From a virus, in the UHGV virus genome UHGV-0071294: a stretch of DNA of 37,551 bases, one strand, 5' to 3'. The notes beneath the pieces were generated by a model that was not told the DNA's origin, searched no databases, and was given only the letters and a program-made list of their open reading frames with translations. The translations under genes and the position numbers were made by a program. Below, piece by piece: positions 1,409 to 12,560 of the stretch (the stretch's first letter is position 1; the number at the start of each line of letters is the position of its first letter).

Positions 1409-1557
1409 CGTGCGGTGTCTTGATGAATAAAATTTAGAATAACCTAAGGTGGATGGTCAAGGTTTTTGTGTAGAAAAACCTAAGTTTTTTTGATGTAAAA
1501 AACACAAGTGTTTGAAAGTTTGTGCTTTTTATTACAGGGTGTGGAGAAAAAAGGGGG
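1409..1557. promoter_or_regulatory. Putative promoter/operator region of the leftward small-gene operon
   Basis: Intergenic region between the repressor 3' end and the first small gene; contains CCTAAGG at 1443-1449 and CCTAAG at 1479-1484, the same motif that recurs in the divergent repressor/cro intergenic region. Confidence 0.3.
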
Positions 1558-1965
1558 TTATTTGTTTGCGCTTCTTTTGCGAGCTTTGAGTAGTTCTTCA
1601 AAAAGTTTGTTGAAATTTTCAACTCGAGCACGCATCTCTGACAACAGGGCCTTTTGCTCTGACTCAGGCAGTGCGTCGAACAGTTGAAGTAACTCTTTTT
1701 GATCTTCTGTCAGAATGGCTGGTTGATTATCCGGGAGCGGTTCGCCTGGTTGTTTATCTTCATCCCCAAAAAGAAGCCAAGTCGGTGAGCACTGAAGCGC
1801 TTGGCTCAGTGCGAATAATCTTTTCCCCGCCGGCTGTGTTTCATCTCTTTCCCATTGAGAAATTGTTACGTGAGCCACTTTGACCAGCTTACCTAATGCG
1901 GCCTGAGACAGTTTTAATTTTTTACGCCTATGTAAGAGGCGAGCACCGAAGGTTTCGTTTTTCAT
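1558..1965 (-). CDS. XRE-family HTH repressor, DicA/cI-like (135 aa), with no LexA-type S24 peptidase domain
   Basis: N-terminal HTH (LSQAALGKLVKVAHVTISQWERDETQP); C-terminus recalled as DicA-like (NFNKLFEELLKA); divergent from a Cro-like gene; too short to carry an autocleavage domain. Confidence 0.75.
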   Translation of the reverse strand: MKNETFGARLLHRRKKLKLSQAALGKLVKVAHVTISQWERDETQPAGKRLFALSQALQCSPTWLLFGDEDKQPGEPLPDNQPAILTEDQKELLQLFDALPESEQKALLSEMRARVENFNKLFEELLKARKRSANK

Positions 1966-4695: not shown

Positions 4696-4934
4696 GCGAA
4701 TCAAAATGTCAGGTTAATGGCAATCAGTTAGAACTATGTGCGGCACTGGCAAAAGCCCTTGAGCATGATGCTGAATACACGATGCGAAAAGGTCTGCTGA
4801 TATACAAAATCTGGAATGAGAATTTAACTCGCGCCCCTGATTTGGTGATGTTGCGTTCCGGTGAATTTTCTAAATCACCTATTCGAGTCTCATTTTGCCC
4901 GTTCTGTGGTGAAAGTCTGAAAACATGGAAATAA
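4692..4934 (+). CDS. small zinc-ribbon-like protein (80 aa)
   Basis: GTG start coupled to the upstream stop, with RBS AGGAGGTG; cysteine pairs CQVNGNQLELC and CPFCG. Confidence 0.4.
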   Translation: MSESKCQVNGNQLELCAALAKALEHDAEYTMRKGLLIYKIWNENLTRAPDLVMLRSGEFSKSPIRVSFCPFCGESLKTWK

Positions 4935-6710: not shown

Positions 6711-6928
6711 CTCCGGATGGTTGGATAAGCTGTAGTGAGCGAATGCCGGATACCAAAACAGCCGTTCTTGTTGCCGTGGAGTTTGACAGGAAAGGTGACT
6801 GGCGAATGAAATGGGCGACTTACATCCCGGGGCATCCTGACGCTAATGATGGGTGGATAATTCCTGGTGCGTCGTGGAAACCGTCACACTGGATGCCGCT
6901 ACCGGAACCGCCACAGGAGGTGAGTTAA
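6659..6928 (+). CDS. DUF551-like protein (89 aa from the first ATG; its frame is open from 6566)
   Basis: Sequence MVEIVEIAMRKAGNSPVTPDGWISCSERMPD...WMPLPEPP recalled as the DUF551 type found in enterobacterial prophages; upstream start uncertain. Confidence 0.45.
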   Translation: MVEIVEIAMRKAGNSPVTPDGWISCSERMPDTKTAVLVAVEFDRKGDWRMKWATYIPGHPDANDGWIIPGASWKPSHWMPLPEPPQEVS

Positions 6929-7011
6929 TGACCTGGCCTGAAGCATTCACAACGGTAGGAATTGCGATGGCGGTGGCGCTGGTGGTGTATTCGATTTGCC
7001 GTTGGGGATAA
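6928..7011 (+). CDS. small membrane peptide (27 aa, MTWPEAFTTVGIAMAVALVVYSICRWG)
   Basis: Strong RBS CAGGAGG 7 nt upstream; TAATG overlap with the preceding stop; single hydrophobic helix. Translated by hand, too short for the ORF track. Confidence 0.35.
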   Translation: MTWPEAFTTVGIAMAVALVVYSICRWG

Positions 7012-7150
7012 ATCACCGTAAAAAAAGACCCCGACACAAACATGAGCCGGGATCTTTGATTTATATAGCTTACGAATCCGCCAGTAAGAGAGCGGGGCGG
7101 ATGGCTTATTTTAACATTGGGGTGGAGGAACCAAAAGTGTTGTTTTGGCT

Positions 7151-7172
7151 TACCAAAACGATCGTTTTGGTA
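7151..7172. promoter_or_regulatory. Perfect 22-bp palindrome TACCAAAACGATCGTTTTGGTA, a candidate operator
   Basis: Read directly from the sequence; lies about 110 bp upstream of the putative antitoxin gene in an otherwise non-coding stretch. Confidence 0.4.
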
Positions 7173-7283
7173 GCTAAAAATTTTTATCCGCATTAGACTA
7201 ATCTAACCTTAGTACTACACTATTAATTACGCGCCAGGTTGGTGCGTTGGCCTTGCCAAAAGAACTTCAAGGGAAACGACAAG

Positions 7284-7463
7284 ATGAGCTACGCACTCAA
7301 GAAACACACACGGCTAAATATTCCGCCTCGCGACAAACGGGTTGTGGCAGCCCCTCGCCCGGCGATTGATGAAAACTGCACTCATCGTGAGCAGGTGAAA
7401 AATGCTTTCGATTTCGGTTTTTCTCGTTACGAGAAGGCAATGGAAGAACTTTCAAAAGTGTAA
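7284..7463 (+). CDS. putative antitoxin partner of the Doc/Fic toxin (59 aa)
   Basis: Small ORF ending 18 bp upstream of the toxin gene, the typical TA arrangement; no recognised antitoxin motif. Confidence 0.4.
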   Translation: MSYALKKHTRLNIPPRDKRVVAAPRPAIDENCTHREQVKNAFDFGFSRYEKAMEELSKV

Positions 7464-7481
7464 TGATGGGTATTGTGCTCT

Positions 7482-7961
7482 ATGGCTGAGATTGTTGAAG
7501 GAGTGCATTACCTTACGGTTGATGATCTTGTTGAAATCAATCGTTCCCTAATTGAATTACAGACGCCAGATGAGCCCGTTGGTGTTCTGAGTCCAGATAG
7601 CTTAAGTTCTTCTCAGGCCCGTCCCAGCATGGTTCGATGGTATGAACAGACTAATGACATGTTTGTACTGGTATCGGTATTGATTGAAAGTCTGATTCAG
7701 AATCATCCGTTTGCTAATGCGAACAAACGAACAGCTATGATGGCTGGTTACGTCTTCTTGTTGTTGAATGGCTATGAGTTAACAGCACCAGGCGATGAAA
7801 TCGTGGAAATGGCAGAGGGACTGGCCTGCAAAACCTATACTCGAGAAGATCTCGAGAACTGGTTGTGTTATTGGTCTCGTGCGTATGACAGCCGGGAATT
7901 ATGTAAAACAGGCGCAACTATTGTTTTGTATGAAACTATCAAGCTTAAAATAGAACAGTAA
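7482..7961 (+). CDS. Fic/Doc-family toxin (death-on-curing-like)
   Basis: Motif HPFANANKRTAMMAGYVFLLLNGY matches the Doc/Fic core HxFx(D/N)(A/G)NKR (P1 Doc HIFNDANKRTA); followed by an intrinsic terminator. Confidence 0.75.
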   Translation: MAEIVEGVHYLTVDDLVEINRSLIELQTPDEPVGVLSPDSLSSSQARPSMVRWYEQTNDMFVLVSVLIESLIQNHPFANANKRTAMMAGYVFLLLNGYELTAPGDEIVEMAEGLACKTYTREDLENWLCYWSRAYDSRELCKTGATIVLYETIKLKIEQ

Positions 7962-7981
7962 AACTAAAGGTGCTTCTAATG

Positions 7982-8006
7982 AAAACCCGCTTCGGCGGGT
8001 TTTTTG
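7982..8006 (+). terminator. Rho-independent terminator
   Basis: Hairpin ACCCGC-TTCG-GCGGGT followed by TTTTTT. Confidence 0.7.
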
Positions 8007-8087
8007 TTGTTTATCTTCGGTGAGCTTGATGCATCTGGTTGTACTGATGTGGCTGTCTGATTTTGTTATTCAGGTGGCTTATTGCTG

Positions 8088-8115: not shown

Positions 8116-8196
8116 CGAGGCTCTTAAGTAGCGCGCAGGGAGAAGAGGGATGGACCCCGAACAGGGGAGTGCTATTTATCTGGAAGGATTCTGTTG

Positions 8197-8457
8197 ATGA
8201 AAATCGAAGAATTGCGTGAAATTTTTAGTGAAGATGGCCTCTATACTGTGCGCGTTGAGAATGGCGCTATTGTCAGCCACTGCCGTATTAAATGTTTACA
8301 GTCTCAACAAAGGAAGAGTGGGGCTGCGTTAATTTACTTTGTGGATGGACTTGTGACGGATGGTTTTATTTTGCGTGAAAATGAATTTGTCACATCATTG
8401 CAGTCTCTGAAAGAAGCTGAGCTTAAGGCTGGTTTTTCTGCTTTTGAAGATGTGTGA
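8197..8457 (+). CDS. hypothetical protein (86 aa)
   Basis: ATG at 8197 with a GGAAGG RBS; no recognisable motif. Confidence 0.4.
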   Translation: MKIEELREIFSEDGLYTVRVENGAIVSHCRIKCLQSQQRKSGAALIYFVDGLVTDGFILRENEFVTSLQSLKEAELKAGFSAFEDV

Positions 8458-8524
8458 ATTCAACTACAATTTAGCGCAGGGCTGAACCCCCTGTTGAGTA
8501 ACACTGTGCCACCGGAGAAAACCG

Positions 8525-8803
8525 ATGGCGCAAAATTCCAGACTACACAATTCTGATAATTCAGCCGTCTTTGCCAGCAGGCACGGGCGGCGTTCTCATG
8601 CATTCAAATATGACTGGTACCAGCATGACCCATGCACTGAAGAACAGGCCGAATGGCTGATTCAGAACTACCGCAGACGTGGGTATGAGTTTAGGAAAGC
8701 CCTCAGCCTCGATTATCGTCACTGGATAATCTACGTCAGGCTCCCTTACTCCGAACGCCCACCGCGTCCGTCCCGCACATTCCAGCAACGCATCTGGAGG
8801 TAA
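8525..8803 (+). CDS. hypothetical protein (92 aa)
   Basis: RBS GGAGAAAACC before the ATG; no recognisable motif. Confidence 0.4.
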   Translation: MAQNSRLHNSDNSAVFASRHGRRSHAFKYDWYQHDPCTEEQAEWLIQNYRRRGYEFRKALSLDYRHWIIYVRLPYSERPPRPSRTFQQRIWR

Positions 8804-8804
8804 C

Positions 8805-9854
8805 GTGCGGGTATTGCTTCGACCTGTTCCGGTACCGGAACTCGGGCTGGTGGTCTTTAAGCCTGGTCGTGAATCCATGCAGGTATTTCATAACCCTCGA
8901 GTGCTGGTGGAGCCGGAACCGAAAAGCATGCGCGGTCTGCCGTCCGGAGTTGTTCCTGCCGTTCGCCAGCCGCTGGCAGAAGATAAATCATTGCTGCCAT
9001 TTTTCAGCGACGAACGGGTGATTCGTGCTGCCGGCGGCGCTGGTGCACTGTCTGACTGGCTCCTGCGTCATGTTAAATCCTGCCAGTGGTCTCATGGTGA
9101 CTACCATCACAGTGAAACCGTCATACATCGTTACGGTACCGGCGCGATGGTGTTGTGCTGGCACTGCGACAACCAGCTGCGTGACCAGACCTCAGAATCA
9201 CTTGAGCAACTTGCTCAACAAAACCTGACAGCATGGATGATTGACGTCATCCGTCACGCAATAAGCGGTGCGCAGGAGCGTGAATTATCGCTGGCTGAAT
9301 TATCCTGGTGGGCTGTCTGCAATCAGGTGGTGGACGCACTACCGGAGGTAGTATTACGTCGTTCTCTGGGGTTACGTGCGGAAAAAATTCGCTCGGTGTA
9401 CCGCGAAAGCGACATCATACCGGGAGAGCAGACCGCCACCAGCATACTGAAGCAGCGCACAAAAAATCTTGCGCCGTTGCCTCACGCCCACCAGCAACCG
9501 AACCCACCACAGGAAAAGACGGTGGTCAGTATCGCCGTTGATCCGGAGTCTCCTGAATCTTTCATGAAGCGACCTAAACGTCGCCGTTGGGTGAATGAGA
9601 AATACACGCGTTGGGTAAAGACACAGCCGTGTGCGTGTTGTGGTAAGCCAGCAGACGATCCCCATCACCTGATTGGTCATGGTCAGGGCGGGATGGGAAC
9701 AAAATCCCACGATATTTTCACGCTACCGTTGTGTCGGGAGCATCACAACGAGCTTCATGCGGATCCGCTGGCGTTCGAAGAAAAGCATGGTTCCCAGATT
9801 GATTTAATTTTTCGTTTTCTTGATCACGCCTTTGCAACCGGCGTGCTCGGGTAA
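8805..9854 (+). CDS. DUF968/YdfU-like protein with a C-terminal Cys/His cluster (349 aa)
   Basis: C-terminal CACCGKPADDPHHLIGHG...LPLCREHHNELH; size and position (before rusA and Q) recall Qin ydfU; GTG start with a GGAGG RBS. Confidence 0.55.
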   Translation: MRVLLRPVPVPELGLVVFKPGRESMQVFHNPRVLVEPEPKSMRGLPSGVVPAVRQPLAEDKSLLPFFSDERVIRAAGGAGALSDWLLRHVKSCQWSHGDYHHSETVIHRYGTGAMVLCWHCDNQLRDQTSESLEQLAQQNLTAWMIDVIRHAISGAQERELSLAELSWWAVCNQVVDALPEVVLRRSLGLRAEKIRSVYRESDIIPGEQTATSILKQRTKNLAPLPHAHQQPNPPQEKTVVSIAVDPESPESFMKRPKRRRWVNEKYTRWVKTQPCACCGKPADDPHHLIGHGQGGMGTKSHDIFTLPLCREHHNELHADPLAFEEKHGSQIDLIFRFLDHAFATGVLG

Positions 9855-11285: not shown

Positions 11286-12026
11286 ATGAATGAAGCCTGT
11301 TCTGTTGTTTTTGTTCATTCCCCGTTTGTTGTGCTCTTTGAAGGAAAAGAGCTCTCTCTGGAAAGTGGTAGTGCACTTCTTGTCAGGGGGGGAGCTGGAT
11401 CGTTATTGCCCTTTTCGGAATGTTTTCGGCGAATAAGTCTCAGTGAATCAACAATTATCCGTTACCTGTTGTGTGGAGACGAAAAACAGGATGTAGTTTT
11501 AGTCCGGCAAATACCACGATATCTTTGCGTGAGTTTTCCCAAGGCAGAATTGATGGGCATCCTGATTGATTATCTCTGTGAGGAAAAGATTCATACGGAC
11601 AATTTAGCGGAAATGCTTTCCTTTTCGTGTCTGGCGTTTTTCTCATCAGAGAAAATGTTTTCGTCGTTTCTGACCGCGTGTATTGGCAATATTAGTGACA
11701 GGCTTAGTGCATTGTTTCGTACGGACATTGCAGCAAACTGGACTCTGAGAGATGTGTCTTCGCGGTTATGTATCAGTGAAAGTTTGTTAAAAAAAAGACT
11801 GAAAGAAGAAGGCACCTGTTTCAGTGAGTTGTTGCTTACAGAGAGAATGAGAATGGCAGCAATGCTGTTGAATCAATCTCGTTGCGCCATCAACAGAATC
11901 GCTGCTCAGTGCGGCTATAATTTTACATCTTATTTTATCAGCGTATTCAGGAGTTATTTTGGTGTTACACCGGCAGGTTACAGGATGGCTGCATTCAATG
12001 AGATGAGTTCTGGCTCCGCGCAATAA
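11286..12026 (+). CDS. AraC-family transcriptional regulator (cargo gene)
   Basis: C-terminal AraC-type HTH pattern (WTLRDVSSRLCISESLLKKRLK...INRIAAQCGYNFTSYFISVFRSYFGVTPAGYR); AT-rich; sits between Q/tR' and the lysis genes; possible own promoter at 11226-11252. Confidence 0.8.
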   Translation: MNEACSVVFVHSPFVVLFEGKELSLESGSALLVRGGAGSLLPFSECFRRISLSESTIIRYLLCGDEKQDVVLVRQIPRYLCVSFPKAELMGILIDYLCEEKIHTDNLAEMLSFSCLAFFSSEKMFSSFLTACIGNISDRLSALFRTDIAANWTLRDVSSRLCISESLLKKRLKEEGTCFSELLLTERMRMAAMLLNQSRCAINRIAAQCGYNFTSYFISVFRSYFGVTPAGYRMAAFNEMSSGSAQ

Positions 12027-12406: not shown

Positions 12407-12482
<76 letters not shown>

Positions 12483-12485
12483 TAT

Positions 12486-12560
<75 letters not shown>

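What the first reader, a model, noticed from the sequence alone, without database searches (positions are those of the whole stretch)
7151..7961. Doc/Fic-family toxin with upstream small ORF and a perfect 22-bp palindrome, in the slot where Qin carries relBE
The 159-aa protein carries the Doc/Fic core motif and is preceded by a 59-aa ORF and, about 110 bp further upstream, a perfect palindrome that is a plausible autoregulatory operator. The module sits in the nin-like region next to a DUF968/YdfU-like gene, which suggests a conserved slot where different toxin-antitoxin modules are exchanged. The small upstream protein does not resemble Phd as far as I can tell, so the antitoxin may be of a different family.
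Basis: partly seen in the sequence, partly recalled or inferred. Interest (0 to 1): 0.55.

Follow-up and report, generated by a model that had tools for sequence, protein, structure and literature searches.

The report
Prophage Doc toxin with minimal antitoxin
This is a self-contained two-gene toxin-antitoxin cassette carried by a lambda-like prophage, in which a Doc-type toxin is paired with an uncharacterised 59-residue partner that has no DNA-binding part; the eye-catching palindrome upstream is real but is not a conserved part of the cassette.

Summary

**Toxin.** It scores 125.9 bits against TIGR01550 and keeps an intact HPFANANKR motif.

**Small ORF.** It is a real gene (dN/dS 0.08). It sits 10-22 nt upstream of a Doc homologue in the window and all 95 loci fetched with it, in unrelated phage contexts. 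It belongs to an uncharacterised family of 44-95-aa proteins (phrog_2208). It shows no similarity to Phd. AlphaFold models one C-terminal helix and no DNA-binding domain. I read it as an antitoxin that only neutralises the toxin.

**Slot.** The cassette ends at the same terminator that follows relBE-hokD in Qin, and rem-ydfU homologues come next. The "slot" idea therefore holds approximately.

**Operator idea.** This is not supported. The palindrome is one of two tandem units. They occur in 5 of these 96 sequences, all one lineage. They are absent upstream of antitoxins that are 95% identical.

**Conserved upstream element.** The conserved element in E. coli is instead a TTAG-N6-CTAA dyad over the -10 region (7193-7206). 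It matches the DicA operator core and the operators of this prophage's own DicA-like repressor.

Verdict: a new variant of a known kind, of moderate interest.

The parts
7130..7148 (.). Imperfect palindrome, unit 1 of a tandem pair (ACCAAAAGTGTTGTTTTGG; CCAAAA-N6-TTTTGG)
   Evidence: (family D1 and pair I1). It is specific to this lineage. It is not a conserved part of the module.
7151..7172 (.). Perfect 22-bp palindrome, unit 2 (TACCAAAACGATCGTTTTGGTA, GATC at its centre), 22 bp in register with unit 1
   Evidence: pair I3. Its closest relatives (L001, L016, L018) carry one hybrid copy made of the left half of unit 1 and the right half of unit 2. It abuts the position where other E. coli lineages have the -35 hexamer.
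7193..7206 (.). TTAGACTAATCTAA dyad (TTAG-N6-CTAA) covering the -10-like hexamers TAGACT (7196-7201) and TAATCT (7200-7205). It is the conserved promoter/operator core of the E. coli lineages.
   Evidence: It sits at -88 to -93 in all three E. coli upstream types while its spacer and flanks differ. The window has 4 exact sites against 0.29 expected, and the other three lie in the immunity region. It equals the core of the DicA operator Oc (PMC3441716). The promoter assignment rests on consensus scoring only.
7284..7463 (+). 59-aa antitoxin candidate (phrog_2208). N-terminal extended segment with the motif L-x-I-P-x-R-D-K; C-terminal helix, residues 34-57. An AGGGA Shine-Dalgarno-like sequence lies at 7270-7274.
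   Evidence: family and conservation; strict pairing with Doc; PHROG; dN/dS 0.083; AlphaFold.
7482..7961 (+). 159-aa Doc-family toxin with HPFANANKR at residues 75-83 and a conserved C-terminal extension (about residues 125-141) that the PDB chain of P1 Doc (126 residues) does not have
7981..8004 (+). Intrinsic terminator (GAAAACCCGCTTCGGCGGGTTTTT followed by a T-rich tail). It closes the cassette and is the same element as the terminator after hokD in Qin.

Best explanation
Positions 7193-8004 are a mobile two-gene toxin-antitoxin cassette (a phage 'moron') lodged in the nin region of a Qin/Rac-like lambdoid prophage.

**Toxin.** The 159-aa protein is a Doc-family enzyme. By analogy with P1 Doc it would phosphorylate EF-Tu and stop translation.

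**Antitoxin.** The 59-aa protein is most likely its antitoxin. It consists only of a toxin-neutralising segment: a nearly invariant C-terminal helix plus a short conserved IPxRDK motif on an unstructured N-terminal arm. It has no DNA-binding domain. I infer that it wraps around Doc and blocks it directly. I also infer that the antitoxin is made in excess, because it has a good ribosome-binding site and Doc has almost none.

**Transcription.** Because the antitoxin cannot bind DNA, transcription is not autoregulated in the classical Phd/Doc way. Transcription starts at the cassette's own promoter, whose -10 region (7196-7205) lies inside a TTAG-N6-CTAA dyad. It ends at the terminator at 7981-8004. 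In this prophage the dyad matches the operators of the resident DicA-like repressor, which may therefore be the external regulator.

**Palindromes.** The 22-bp palindrome and its imperfect twin (7130-7172) are not part of the conserved cassette. They sit at a mosaic junction that replaced the ancestral -35 region in one lineage. Whatever they bind, it is not the small protein.

**Shown:** family membership, pairing, selection, absence of a recognisable DNA-binding domain, distribution of the cis elements, and the junctions with Qin.

**Inferred:** neutralisation, toxicity, promoter use and repressor binding.
For: - **Doc membership.** TIGR01550 125.9 bits, Pfam Fic 43.7 bits, phrog_577 'Doc-like toxin'. 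The catalytic motif is invariant. The best solved relatives are Doc proteins (9vzc E 5e-13; P1 Doc 3k33 E 1.6e-4).
- **Pairing.** The window and all 95 loci fetched through the small ORF have a Doc gene 10-22 nt downstream. The loci come from E. coli and nine other species, including Kluyvera, Serratia, Citrobacter, Hafnia, Yersinia, Rosenbergiella, Xenorhabdus and an Orbaceae bacterium.
- **Pairing, reverse test.** The Doc homologues looked up from Salmonella, Morganella and Dickeya all have the 59-aa ORF just upstream.
- **Context.** Neighbouring genes differ completely between loci: nin region, after hokD, myovirus tail and baseplate genes, KilA-N, Mrr, dinI/umuDC.
- **Purifying selection.** Median dN/dS is 0.083 for the small ORF (about 0 in its C-terminal part, 0.21 in its N-terminal part) and 0.07 for Doc.
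- **No DNA-binding domain.** A profile search of 1.84 billion representatives finds 38 proteins. All are 44-95 aa except one 2917-aa protein matched over 25 residues, which I take to be spurious. AlphaFold gives a single helix at 34-57 with block-mean pLDDT 93-95 and no other secondary structure.
- **Precedent.** Antitoxins made only of a neutralising segment are an accepted class (PMC8138530; PMC10440598).
- **Moron anatomy.** GC is 42-45% against 50-58% in the flanks. A terminator follows Doc. That terminator core is duplicated on both sides of the cassette in hokD-type prophages.
- **Palindrome not conserved.**
- **Dyad.** It is conserved in all E. coli lineages and matches DicA-type operators.
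Against: - No experiment or complex model supports binding or neutralisation.
- The Doc-only model was too poor to use (pLDDT 49).
- The promoter is assigned from consensus and conservation only. In the window lineage there is no acceptable -35, so the cassette might depend on read-through or on an activator.
- The DicA link is weak as a general rule. Three other prophages with the same dyad have different repressors and no such sites in their immunity regions. dicA at 80% or more nucleotide identity is present in only 851 of 5426 E. coli genomes.
- A short N-terminal arm could in principle contact DNA once it is bound to Doc. That cannot be excluded by computation.
Confidence: 0.7

Rival explanations
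1. The tandem palindromes at 7130-7172 are the operator at which the small protein, alone or with Doc, represses its own promoter, as the two adjacent Phd sites do in P1.
For: Two evenly spaced dyads next to a TA promoter are the classical arrangement for conditional cooperativity (PMC8138530). The palindrome is far beyond chance. It directly abuts the -35 position.
Against: It is present in one lineage only: 5 of 96 sequences, and 6 of the 362 module-bearing E. coli genomes, where it is one imperfect copy. Antitoxins 95% identical to this one have completely different DNA at that position. The protein has no recognisable DNA-binding domain. The same half-sites, spacer and register occur in 18 Mu-like prophage contigs with no Doc module nearby.
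Confidence: 0.06
2. The tandem palindromes are a portable binding site for an unidentified host or phage factor. In this lineage that factor drives or gates a promoter that lost its -35 hexamer at a recombination junction.
For: The -35 found in the other E. coli lineages (TTGTAA or TTGTGA) is replaced by A/T-rich sequence directly after the palindrome. A tandem pair with the same CCAAAA/TTTTGG half-sites, 6-bp spacer and 22-bp register lies in front of an unrelated gene (phrog_7844) in Mu-like prophages. There too it sits at the point where the upstream sequence switches between three variants.
Against: Beyond the pattern I searched for, the two elements share only 7 of 20 free positions. The resemblance may therefore be convergent. 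Metagenomes hold further unrelated tandem elements that fit the same pattern. No shared regulator gene was found between the window and the Mu-like loci. The closest relatives make do with a single imperfect hybrid copy.
Confidence: 0.25
3. The palindromes have no function for the cassette. They are a scar or hitch-hiker at a mosaic junction, or simply RNA hairpins in read-through transcripts.
For: They lie exactly between a segment shared with Stx2a phages and ArgO145 (7003-7116) and the start of homology with the other module lineages (about 7173). The single-copy form in relatives is a clean hybrid of the two units, as expected from slippage or unequal exchange. The terminator scan flags a weak hairpin at 7139-7162.
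Against: A perfect 22-bp dyad maintained next to an imperfect copy in a two-turn register suggests protein recognition. The RNA fold of 7110-7290 is only marginally more stable than shuffled sequence (z = -1.94).
Confidence: 0.3
4. The small ORF is not an antitoxin. The pair could instead be a Doc-type effector with a co-factor or targeting subunit, used against the host or against competing phages.
For: No binding or rescue data exist. PADLOC gives only marginal hits for Doc and none for the small protein. The Doc subfamily has a conserved C-terminal extension of unknown role.
Against: The gene order, the 10-22 nt spacing, the strong ribosome-binding site on the first gene against a weak one on the second, the strict co-occurrence and the disordered-plus-helix build all fit a type II antitoxin.
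Confidence: 0.1

Closest known systems
Phd-Doc of bacteriophage P1 (type II toxin-antitoxin)
   Same: Doc-family toxin with the H-x-F-x-(D/N)-(A/G)-N-K-R motif, antitoxin gene immediately upstream, carried by a temperate phage. The antitoxin's C-terminal part is predicted helical, as the Doc-binding part of Phd is.
   Different: The partner shows no detectable similarity to Phd. It lacks the Phd/YefM DNA-binding domain, so classical autoregulation by conditional cooperativity is not expected. Doc here is 159 aa, with a conserved C-terminal extension. P1 Doc matches only weakly (E 1.6e-4).
Antitoxins made of a neutralising segment only: PaaA2 (paaR2-paaA2-parE2 of E. coli O157:H7 prophages), S. 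aureus MazE, archaeal RelB, epsilon of omega-epsilon-zeta
   Same: A small, largely disordered antitoxin without a DNA-binding domain. Regulation is absent or supplied by another protein (PMC8138530). PaaA2 is also prophage-borne in E. coli.
   Different: Those antitoxins partner different toxin families. No third regulator gene is conserved next to this cassette.
PanA_Phd-C : DocD6 (Ernits et al. 2023, PMC10440598)
   Same: That work shows that a short helical element alone suffices to neutralise a Doc toxin, and that Doc toxins pair with non-Phd antitoxin scaffolds.
   Different: There the element is fused to a Panacea domain. Here it stands alone, with an extra conserved IPxRDK motif. Sequence homology to Phd-C is not demonstrable.
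relBE-hokD of cryptic prophage Qin (E. coli K-12)
   Same: Same place on the lambdoid map. Both are followed by the same terminator and then by rem, ydfU (DUF968) and Q.
   Different: The toxin and antitoxin families are unrelated. In many prophages the Doc cassette co-exists with hokD, inserted just after its terminator, so it is an addition rather than a strict replacement.
DicA operator Oc (TTGTTAGTCATAACTAACAA) of Qin
   Same: The dyad at 7193-7206 has the same TTAG-N6-CTAA core. A single change in the CTAA arm abolishes DicA binding to Oc (PMC3441716). The window's DicA homologue has five such sites in its own immunity region.
   Different: The outer bases differ (CATTAG...CTAACC against TGTTAG...CTAACA). 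Binding is untested. The dyad persists in prophages that have other repressors.

Membership tests
Doc (death-on-curing) branch of the Fic/Doc superfamily | Profile match above the curated cut-off | tested here: met
   TIGR01550 125.9 bits (cut-off 38.65); PF02661 43.7 bits (cut-off 24); phrog_577 169.8 bits.
Doc (death-on-curing) branch of the Fic/Doc superfamily | Doc-type active-site motif H-x-F-x-(D/N)-(A/G)-N-K-R (the motif definition is from my own knowledge) | tested here: met
   HPFANANKR at residues 75-83. H75, F77, N79, N81, K82 and R83 are invariant in 37 homologues. It aligns with HIFNDANKR of P1 Doc.
Doc (death-on-curing) branch of the Fic/Doc superfamily | Phosphorylates EF-Tu and arrests translation and growth | not testable with these tools
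   Needs toxicity and kinase assays.
Type II toxin-antitoxin module | Small antitoxin gene immediately upstream of the toxin gene in the same orientation, inherited together | tested here: met
   The gap is 18 nt here and 10-22 nt elsewhere. The window and all 95 fetched loci are paired, as are all loci looked up from Doc homologues of three further genera, in unrelated contexts.
Type II toxin-antitoxin module | The antitoxin binds and neutralises the toxin | not testable with these tools
The only indirect support is a conserved C-terminal helix with pLDDT above 90.
Type II toxin-antitoxin module | The antitoxin carries a DNA-binding domain and autoregulates the operon (typical, not universal) | tested here: not met
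   No Pfam or NCBIfam domain. All credible relatives are 44-95 aa. AlphaFold shows one helix and an extended arm. The candidate operator is not conserved.
Phd/YefM antitoxin family | Sequence or profile similarity to Phd/YefM | tested here: not met
   No Pfam hit. BLASTP against P1 Phd finds no alignment at E up to 100. hhalign probability is 2%. No PDB antitoxin appears at E up to 10.
Phage moron (independent transcription unit inserted between conserved phage genes) | Own promoter and terminator, deviant base composition, present or absent among otherwise similar phages | tested here: met
   Terminator. GC 42-45% against 50-58%. Qin lacks the cassette at the same junction. The terminator is duplicated around the cassette. 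The promoter is supported only by consensus and conservation.
DicA-type operator | Inverted repeat with a TTAG-N6-CTAA core, bound by a DicA-family repressor | tested here: inconclusive
   The core is present at 7193-7206 and otherwise only in the immunity region of this window. A DicA homologue is encoded at 1558-1965. Binding is untested, and the dyad also occurs in prophages with other repressors.

The most novel reading that the evidence does not exclude
The cassette is a Doc toxin held by a DNA-blind mini-antitoxin. Its transcription would be wired into whatever regulator its current host phage offers. In this prophage that would be the DicA-like immunity repressor acting through the dyad over the -10 region. 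In addition, an unknown factor would act through a portable tandem ACCAAAAC-N4-GTTTTGGT element that also marks module boundaries in Mu-like prophages. On this reading the toxin-to-antitoxin balance reports the immunity state of the prophage (induction, loss or superinfection) rather than being self-regulated.
Probability: 0.15. Interest if true: 0.6.

Novelty: new variant of a known kind. Interest (0 to 1): 0.4.

Why it matters
- **Prevalence.** Doc toxins are textbook examples of Phd-dependent neutralisation and conditional-cooperativity regulation. This Doc subfamily is common in Enterobacterales prophages: 362 of 5426 complete E. coli genomes carry it, and so do many other genera, including Salmonella, Morganella, Providencia and Serratia.
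- **Annotation gap.** The subfamily is always paired with a 59-residue protein that databases call hypothetical and that cannot autoregulate in the classical way. Naming this family would correct the annotation of an 'orphan' Doc toxin in hundreds of genomes.
- **Experimental use.** The pair offers a minimal natural peptide inhibitor of a Doc kinase. It is also a clean case for asking how a toxin-antitoxin pair is kept balanced without an antitoxin repressor.
- **Caution for sequence-only scans.** The most conspicuous palindrome next to a toxin-antitoxin pair need not be its operator.

Tried and rejected
- **Complex prediction.** Translating straight through both genes was rejected because of the stop codons.
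- **Doc model.** The Doc-only AlphaFold model had mean pLDDT 49, because the alignment contains only close relatives. I ran no fold search on it.
- **Phd-like C-terminus.** By eye I saw a shared F-x3-F ... E-L pattern with the Phd C-terminus. BLASTP and hhalign gave no support, so I dropped it as evidence.
- **Palindrome as immunity operator.** The motif is absent from the immunity region.
- **Palindrome as known RNA.** Rfam finds only two tRNAs in the window. The RNA fold z-score is -1.94.
- **Defence-system libraries.** PADLOC gives nothing useful.
- **Single-palindrome scan of viral contigs.** With only 14 specified bases, almost all of its hits looked like chance matches. The 24-base tandem pattern was informative. 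The metagenome scan added only Mu-like copies and unrelated tandem elements.
- **Prophage repressor as a general regulator of the dyad.** Rejected as a general rule after finding other repressor types in L104, L105 and L106 and dicA in only 16% of E. coli genomes.
- **Literature.** Searches by topic and by RefSeq accession found no study of this pair.
Full report
**Observation**

- TACCAAAACGATCGTTTTGGTA at 7151-7172 is a perfect 22-bp palindrome.
- A 59-aa ORF runs from the ATG at 7284 to 7463, and a 159-aa ORF from the ATG at 7482 to 7961.
- An intrinsic terminator follows at 7981-8004.
It starts exactly 22 bp before the matching part of the perfect one.
- The motif ACCAAAA-N6-TTTTGGT, allowing up to 2 mismatches, occurs at only one other place in the 37.5-kb window, a 2-mismatch match at 6752 that I take for chance.

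**The toxin**

- The 159-aa protein scores 125.9 bits on TIGR01550 (death-on-curing toxin, cut-off 38.65), 43.7 bits on Pfam Fic/DOC and 169.8 bits on phrog_577 'Doc-like toxin'.
- Its best solved relatives are Doc proteins: 9vzc_A (E 5e-13) and P1 Doc 3k33 (E 1.6e-4). 9vzc_A is probably the Enterococcus faecalis Doc described in PMC13034048.
- The motif HPFANANKR (residues 75-83) aligns with HIFNDANKR of P1 Doc. Its key residues are invariant in 37 homologues.
- This Doc subfamily is widespread in Enterobacterales and is annotated as a type II toxin. It has a conserved C-terminal extension (E-x-W-L-C-x-W-S-R-x-Y-D-x-R-x-L-C) that the 126-residue PDB chain of P1 Doc does not have.

**The small ORF is a real gene and the obligate partner of this Doc subfamily**

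- It has no Pfam, NCBIfam or PADLOC match. It is a full-length member of phrog_2208, a PHROG of unknown function.
- A word-indexed search found 17 clusters, all from Enterobacterales. An exhaustive profile search of 1.84 billion representatives found 38 proteins. All are 44-95 aa, apart from one 2917-aa protein matched over 25 residues, which I take to be spurious. No relative carries an added DNA-binding domain.
- Two segments are conserved even in the distant members: (L/I)-x-I-P-x-R-D-K near the N-terminus and Q-V-x-N-A-F-x3-F-x-R-Y-x-K-A-x3-L-S-K-V at the C-terminus.
- I fetched 95 loci through the small ORF: E. coli, nine other species from the genome collection, and 80 IMG/VR contigs. 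In all of them, as in the window, a Doc homologue starts 10-22 nt after its stop.
- The reverse test agrees. Doc homologues looked up from Salmonella, Morganella and Dickeya all have the 59-aa ORF just upstream, even where gene callers missed it.
- Surrounding genes are unrelated from one locus to another: lambdoid nin region, downstream of hokD, myovirus tail and baseplate genes, KilA-N, Mrr, dinI/umuDC. The unit of inheritance is therefore the two-gene cassette.
- Median pairwise dN/dS is 0.083 for the small ORF (about 0 for codons 36-59, 0.21 for codons 1-35) and 0.07 for Doc. It is translated and constrained.

**What the small protein looks like**

- AlphaFold with a 37-sequence alignment gives a single helix at residues 34-57 (block-mean pLDDT 93-95). 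The N-terminal arm is extended and has no secondary structure. pTM is 0.36.
- There is no similarity to Phd. BLASTP finds no alignment, hhalign gives 2% probability, and the family profile finds no antitoxin in the PDB.
- Antitoxins made only of a neutralising segment are a recognised class: archaeal RelB, S. aureus MazE, epsilon, and PaaA2 of O157:H7 prophages (PMC8138530).
- A short helical 'Phd-C' element alone is enough to neutralise a Doc toxin (PMC10440598).
- I therefore read the 59-aa protein as a neutralisation-only antitoxin of a family not yet described.
- The first gene has a Shine-Dalgarno-like AGGGA 10 nt before its ATG. Doc has no good one in any lineage I read. This fits excess antitoxin synthesis.
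The Doc-only model was unusable (pLDDT 49).

**Position in the prophage**

- The window is a Qin/Rac-like lambdoid prophage. In order it encodes a DicA-like repressor (1558-1965, minus strand), a YdaT-like protein, O/P-type replication genes, DUF977, Ead/Ea22, HNH and DUF551. The cassette follows. After it come a Rem homologue, a 92-aa ORF, DUF968/YdfU, RusA, Q and an AraC-family gene.
- Window 8123-9854 is 83.7% identical to Qin rem-ydfU. The terminator after Doc (7984-8018) matches the terminator after Qin hokD. The right-hand junction is therefore the one used by relBE-hokD in Qin.
- In many E. coli prophages the cassette lies after an intact hokD. There it is flanked by two copies of the terminator core AACCCGCTTCGGCGGG, while Qin has one copy.
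- The cassette has lower GC (42-45%) than its flanks (50-58%).
- This is classical moron anatomy (term from my own knowledge of lambdoid phage genomics). The 'slot' idea is right in outline, but the cassette is an insertion next to hokD rather than a strict allele of relBE.

**The palindrome**

- I compared 65 distinct upstream regions. CCAAAA-N6-TTTTGG occurs only in the window, its IMG/VR twin L017 (two units), and L001, L016 and L018 (one unit).
- Among 5426 complete E. coli genomes, 362 carry the cassette. Only 6 have this upstream segment, always as one imperfect copy.
- That single copy, ACCAAAAGTGTCGTTTTGGTA, is exactly the left half of unit 1 joined to the right half of unit 2. This is what a 22-bp deletion between the repeats would produce.
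- The common O157/O121-type cassette has an antitoxin 95% identical to this one. Its homology to the window begins at the ATG (7284), and it has entirely different DNA where the palindromes would be.
- The palindromes lie between a segment shared with Stx2a phages and ArgO145 (7003-7116) and the point where homology with the other E. coli lineages begins (about 7173). They are at a mosaic junction.
- A scan of IMG/VR for the tandem pattern (24 specified bases) returned 19 contigs: the window's twin and 18 Mu-like prophages carrying GemA and Mor. In the Mu-like prophages the pair lies directly in front of an unrelated gene (phrog_7844), with no Doc nearby. It again sits where the upstream sequence switches between three variants.
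- That resemblance is only suggestive. Outside the pattern I searched for, 7 of 20 free positions match, and metagenomes hold other unrelated tandem elements that fit the pattern.
- Taken together, the palindromes are real and non-random, but they are not a conserved component of the cassette. With a partner protein that has no DNA-binding domain, the autoregulatory-operator reading is unlikely.

**What is conserved upstream**

- In other genera the best sigma-70-like promoter contains a shared TA(G/A/C)A(C/T)T -10 element, for example TTGACC-18-TAGACT, TTGATT-17-TACACT and TTGATA-18-TAAACT.
- In the E. coli lineages the best candidates are TTGTAA-18-TATCCT and TTGTGA-18-TATGCT.
- In the window the corresponding -10 is TAATCT (7200-7205), overlapping TAGACT (7196-7201). 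The -35 has been replaced by A/T-rich sequence that directly follows the palindrome.
- All three E. coli upstream types keep a TTAG-N6-CTAA dyad at -88 to -93, while its spacer and flanks differ: TTAGACTAATCTAA, TTAGACTATCCTAA, TTAGG(C/A)TATGCTAA. The dyad is nearly absent elsewhere in about 500 kb of fetched flanks.
- The window has four exact TTAG-N6-CTAA sites, against 0.29 expected. The other three are in the immunity region, as are the only two one-mismatch sites: 1434, 1470, 1967, 1992 and 2018.
- The repressor there aligns with Qin DicA over its full length, at about 60% identity by my count of the alignment. The Qin dicA-dicC region has the same dyads.
- The experimentally defined DicA operator Oc is TTGTTAGTCATAACTAACAA, and a single CTAA-to-CTCA change abolishes binding (PMC3441716).
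- In this prophage the resident repressor is therefore a plausible external regulator of the cassette. This is the 'external repressor' arrangement known for antitoxins without a DNA-binding domain.
- I rate this at about one chance in four. Three other prophages that carry the same dyad have LexA-type or other repressors and no such sites in their immunity regions. Close dicA homologues occur in only 851 of 5426 genomes.

**Novelty and verdict**

- The toxin is already annotated. The partner is 'hypothetical' in RefSeq and 'unknown function' in PHROGs. I found no paper on this pair by topic or by accession.
- A Doc toxin paired with a stand-alone neutralising peptide, and hence without Phd-type autoregulation, is a new variant of a known kind rather than a new kind of system.
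- Interest is moderate (0.4).

Noticed in passing
window 1434-1483 and 1967-2031 (with the repressor gene at 1558-1965, minus strand): The immunity region is of the DicA type. The repressor aligns with Qin DicA over its full length, and five TTAG-N6-CTAA dyads fall into two clusters. They look like left and right operators flanking the repressor gene. The Qin dicA-dicC region has the same dyads.
   Followed up: partly
window 7064-7092: TATAGCTTACGAATCCGCCAGTAAGAGA resembles the 3' end of hokD and its stop region (CACAGCTTACGAACCTGAGGAGTAAGAGA) at the equivalent position in hokD-type prophages. It may be a relic of a deleted hokD. The similarity is short and BLAST did not report it.
   Followed up: partly
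window 7076-7115 and about 7027-7060: Two hairpins followed by T-rich tails lie after the DUF551 gene and a 27-codon hydrophobic ORF (6929-7012, MTWPEAFTTVGIAMAVALVVYSICRWG). One of them is ATCCGCC...GGCGGAT followed by GGCTTATTTT. This segment (7003-7116) is shared with Stx2a phages and phage ArgO145. The hairpins were found by eye; the terminator scan did not flag them.
   Followed up: no
L105 12107 and 12954; L106 11860 and 12703; window 7986; L103 5049: The terminator core AACCCGCTTCGGCGGG is present on both sides of the Doc cassette in hokD-type prophages, and once in Qin and in the window. It may be the sequence at which the cassette was inserted or exchanged.
   Followed up: partly
L110 1740-1779 and 17 further IMG/VR contigs (L125, L155, L193, L221, L227-L239): Mu-like prophages (GemA, Mor) carry a 26-bp perfect palindrome, CAGACCAAAACATATGTTTTGGTCTG, followed by CCAAAAGTAGTGTTTTGG. 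The pair ends 5 nt before the ATG of a phrog_7844 gene. The sequence upstream of the pair comes in three unrelated variants. Its function is unknown.
   Followed up: partly
L003 about 4885-4900; L005 about 4828-4845; L013 upstream region: In other genera the module's promoter region carries different palindromes. These include TTACCTTTAAGGTAA and ACCTTTTAGGT, which resemble the MqsA box ACCT-N3-AGGT (recalled from memory), and CAAC-N5-GTTG dyads over the -35 region. The cassette seems to acquire different operator-like dyads in different hosts.
   Followed up: no
window 8197-8457 and 8525-8803: An 86-aa homologue of Qin Rem (phrog_340) and a 92-aa protein (phrog_1212) lie between the cassette and the DUF968 gene. 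Both are of unknown function.
   Followed up: no
window 11286-12026 and 12407-12557: An AraC-family regulator gene lies just downstream of the Q antiterminator gene, followed by two tRNA genes. This is typical cargo of O157-type lambdoid prophages.
   Followed up: no
window 7182-7193: TTTTTATCCGCA contains TTATCCGCA, one mismatch from the DnaA box TTATCCACA (consensus recalled from memory). It lies between the palindrome and the dyad and is probably chance.
   Followed up: no
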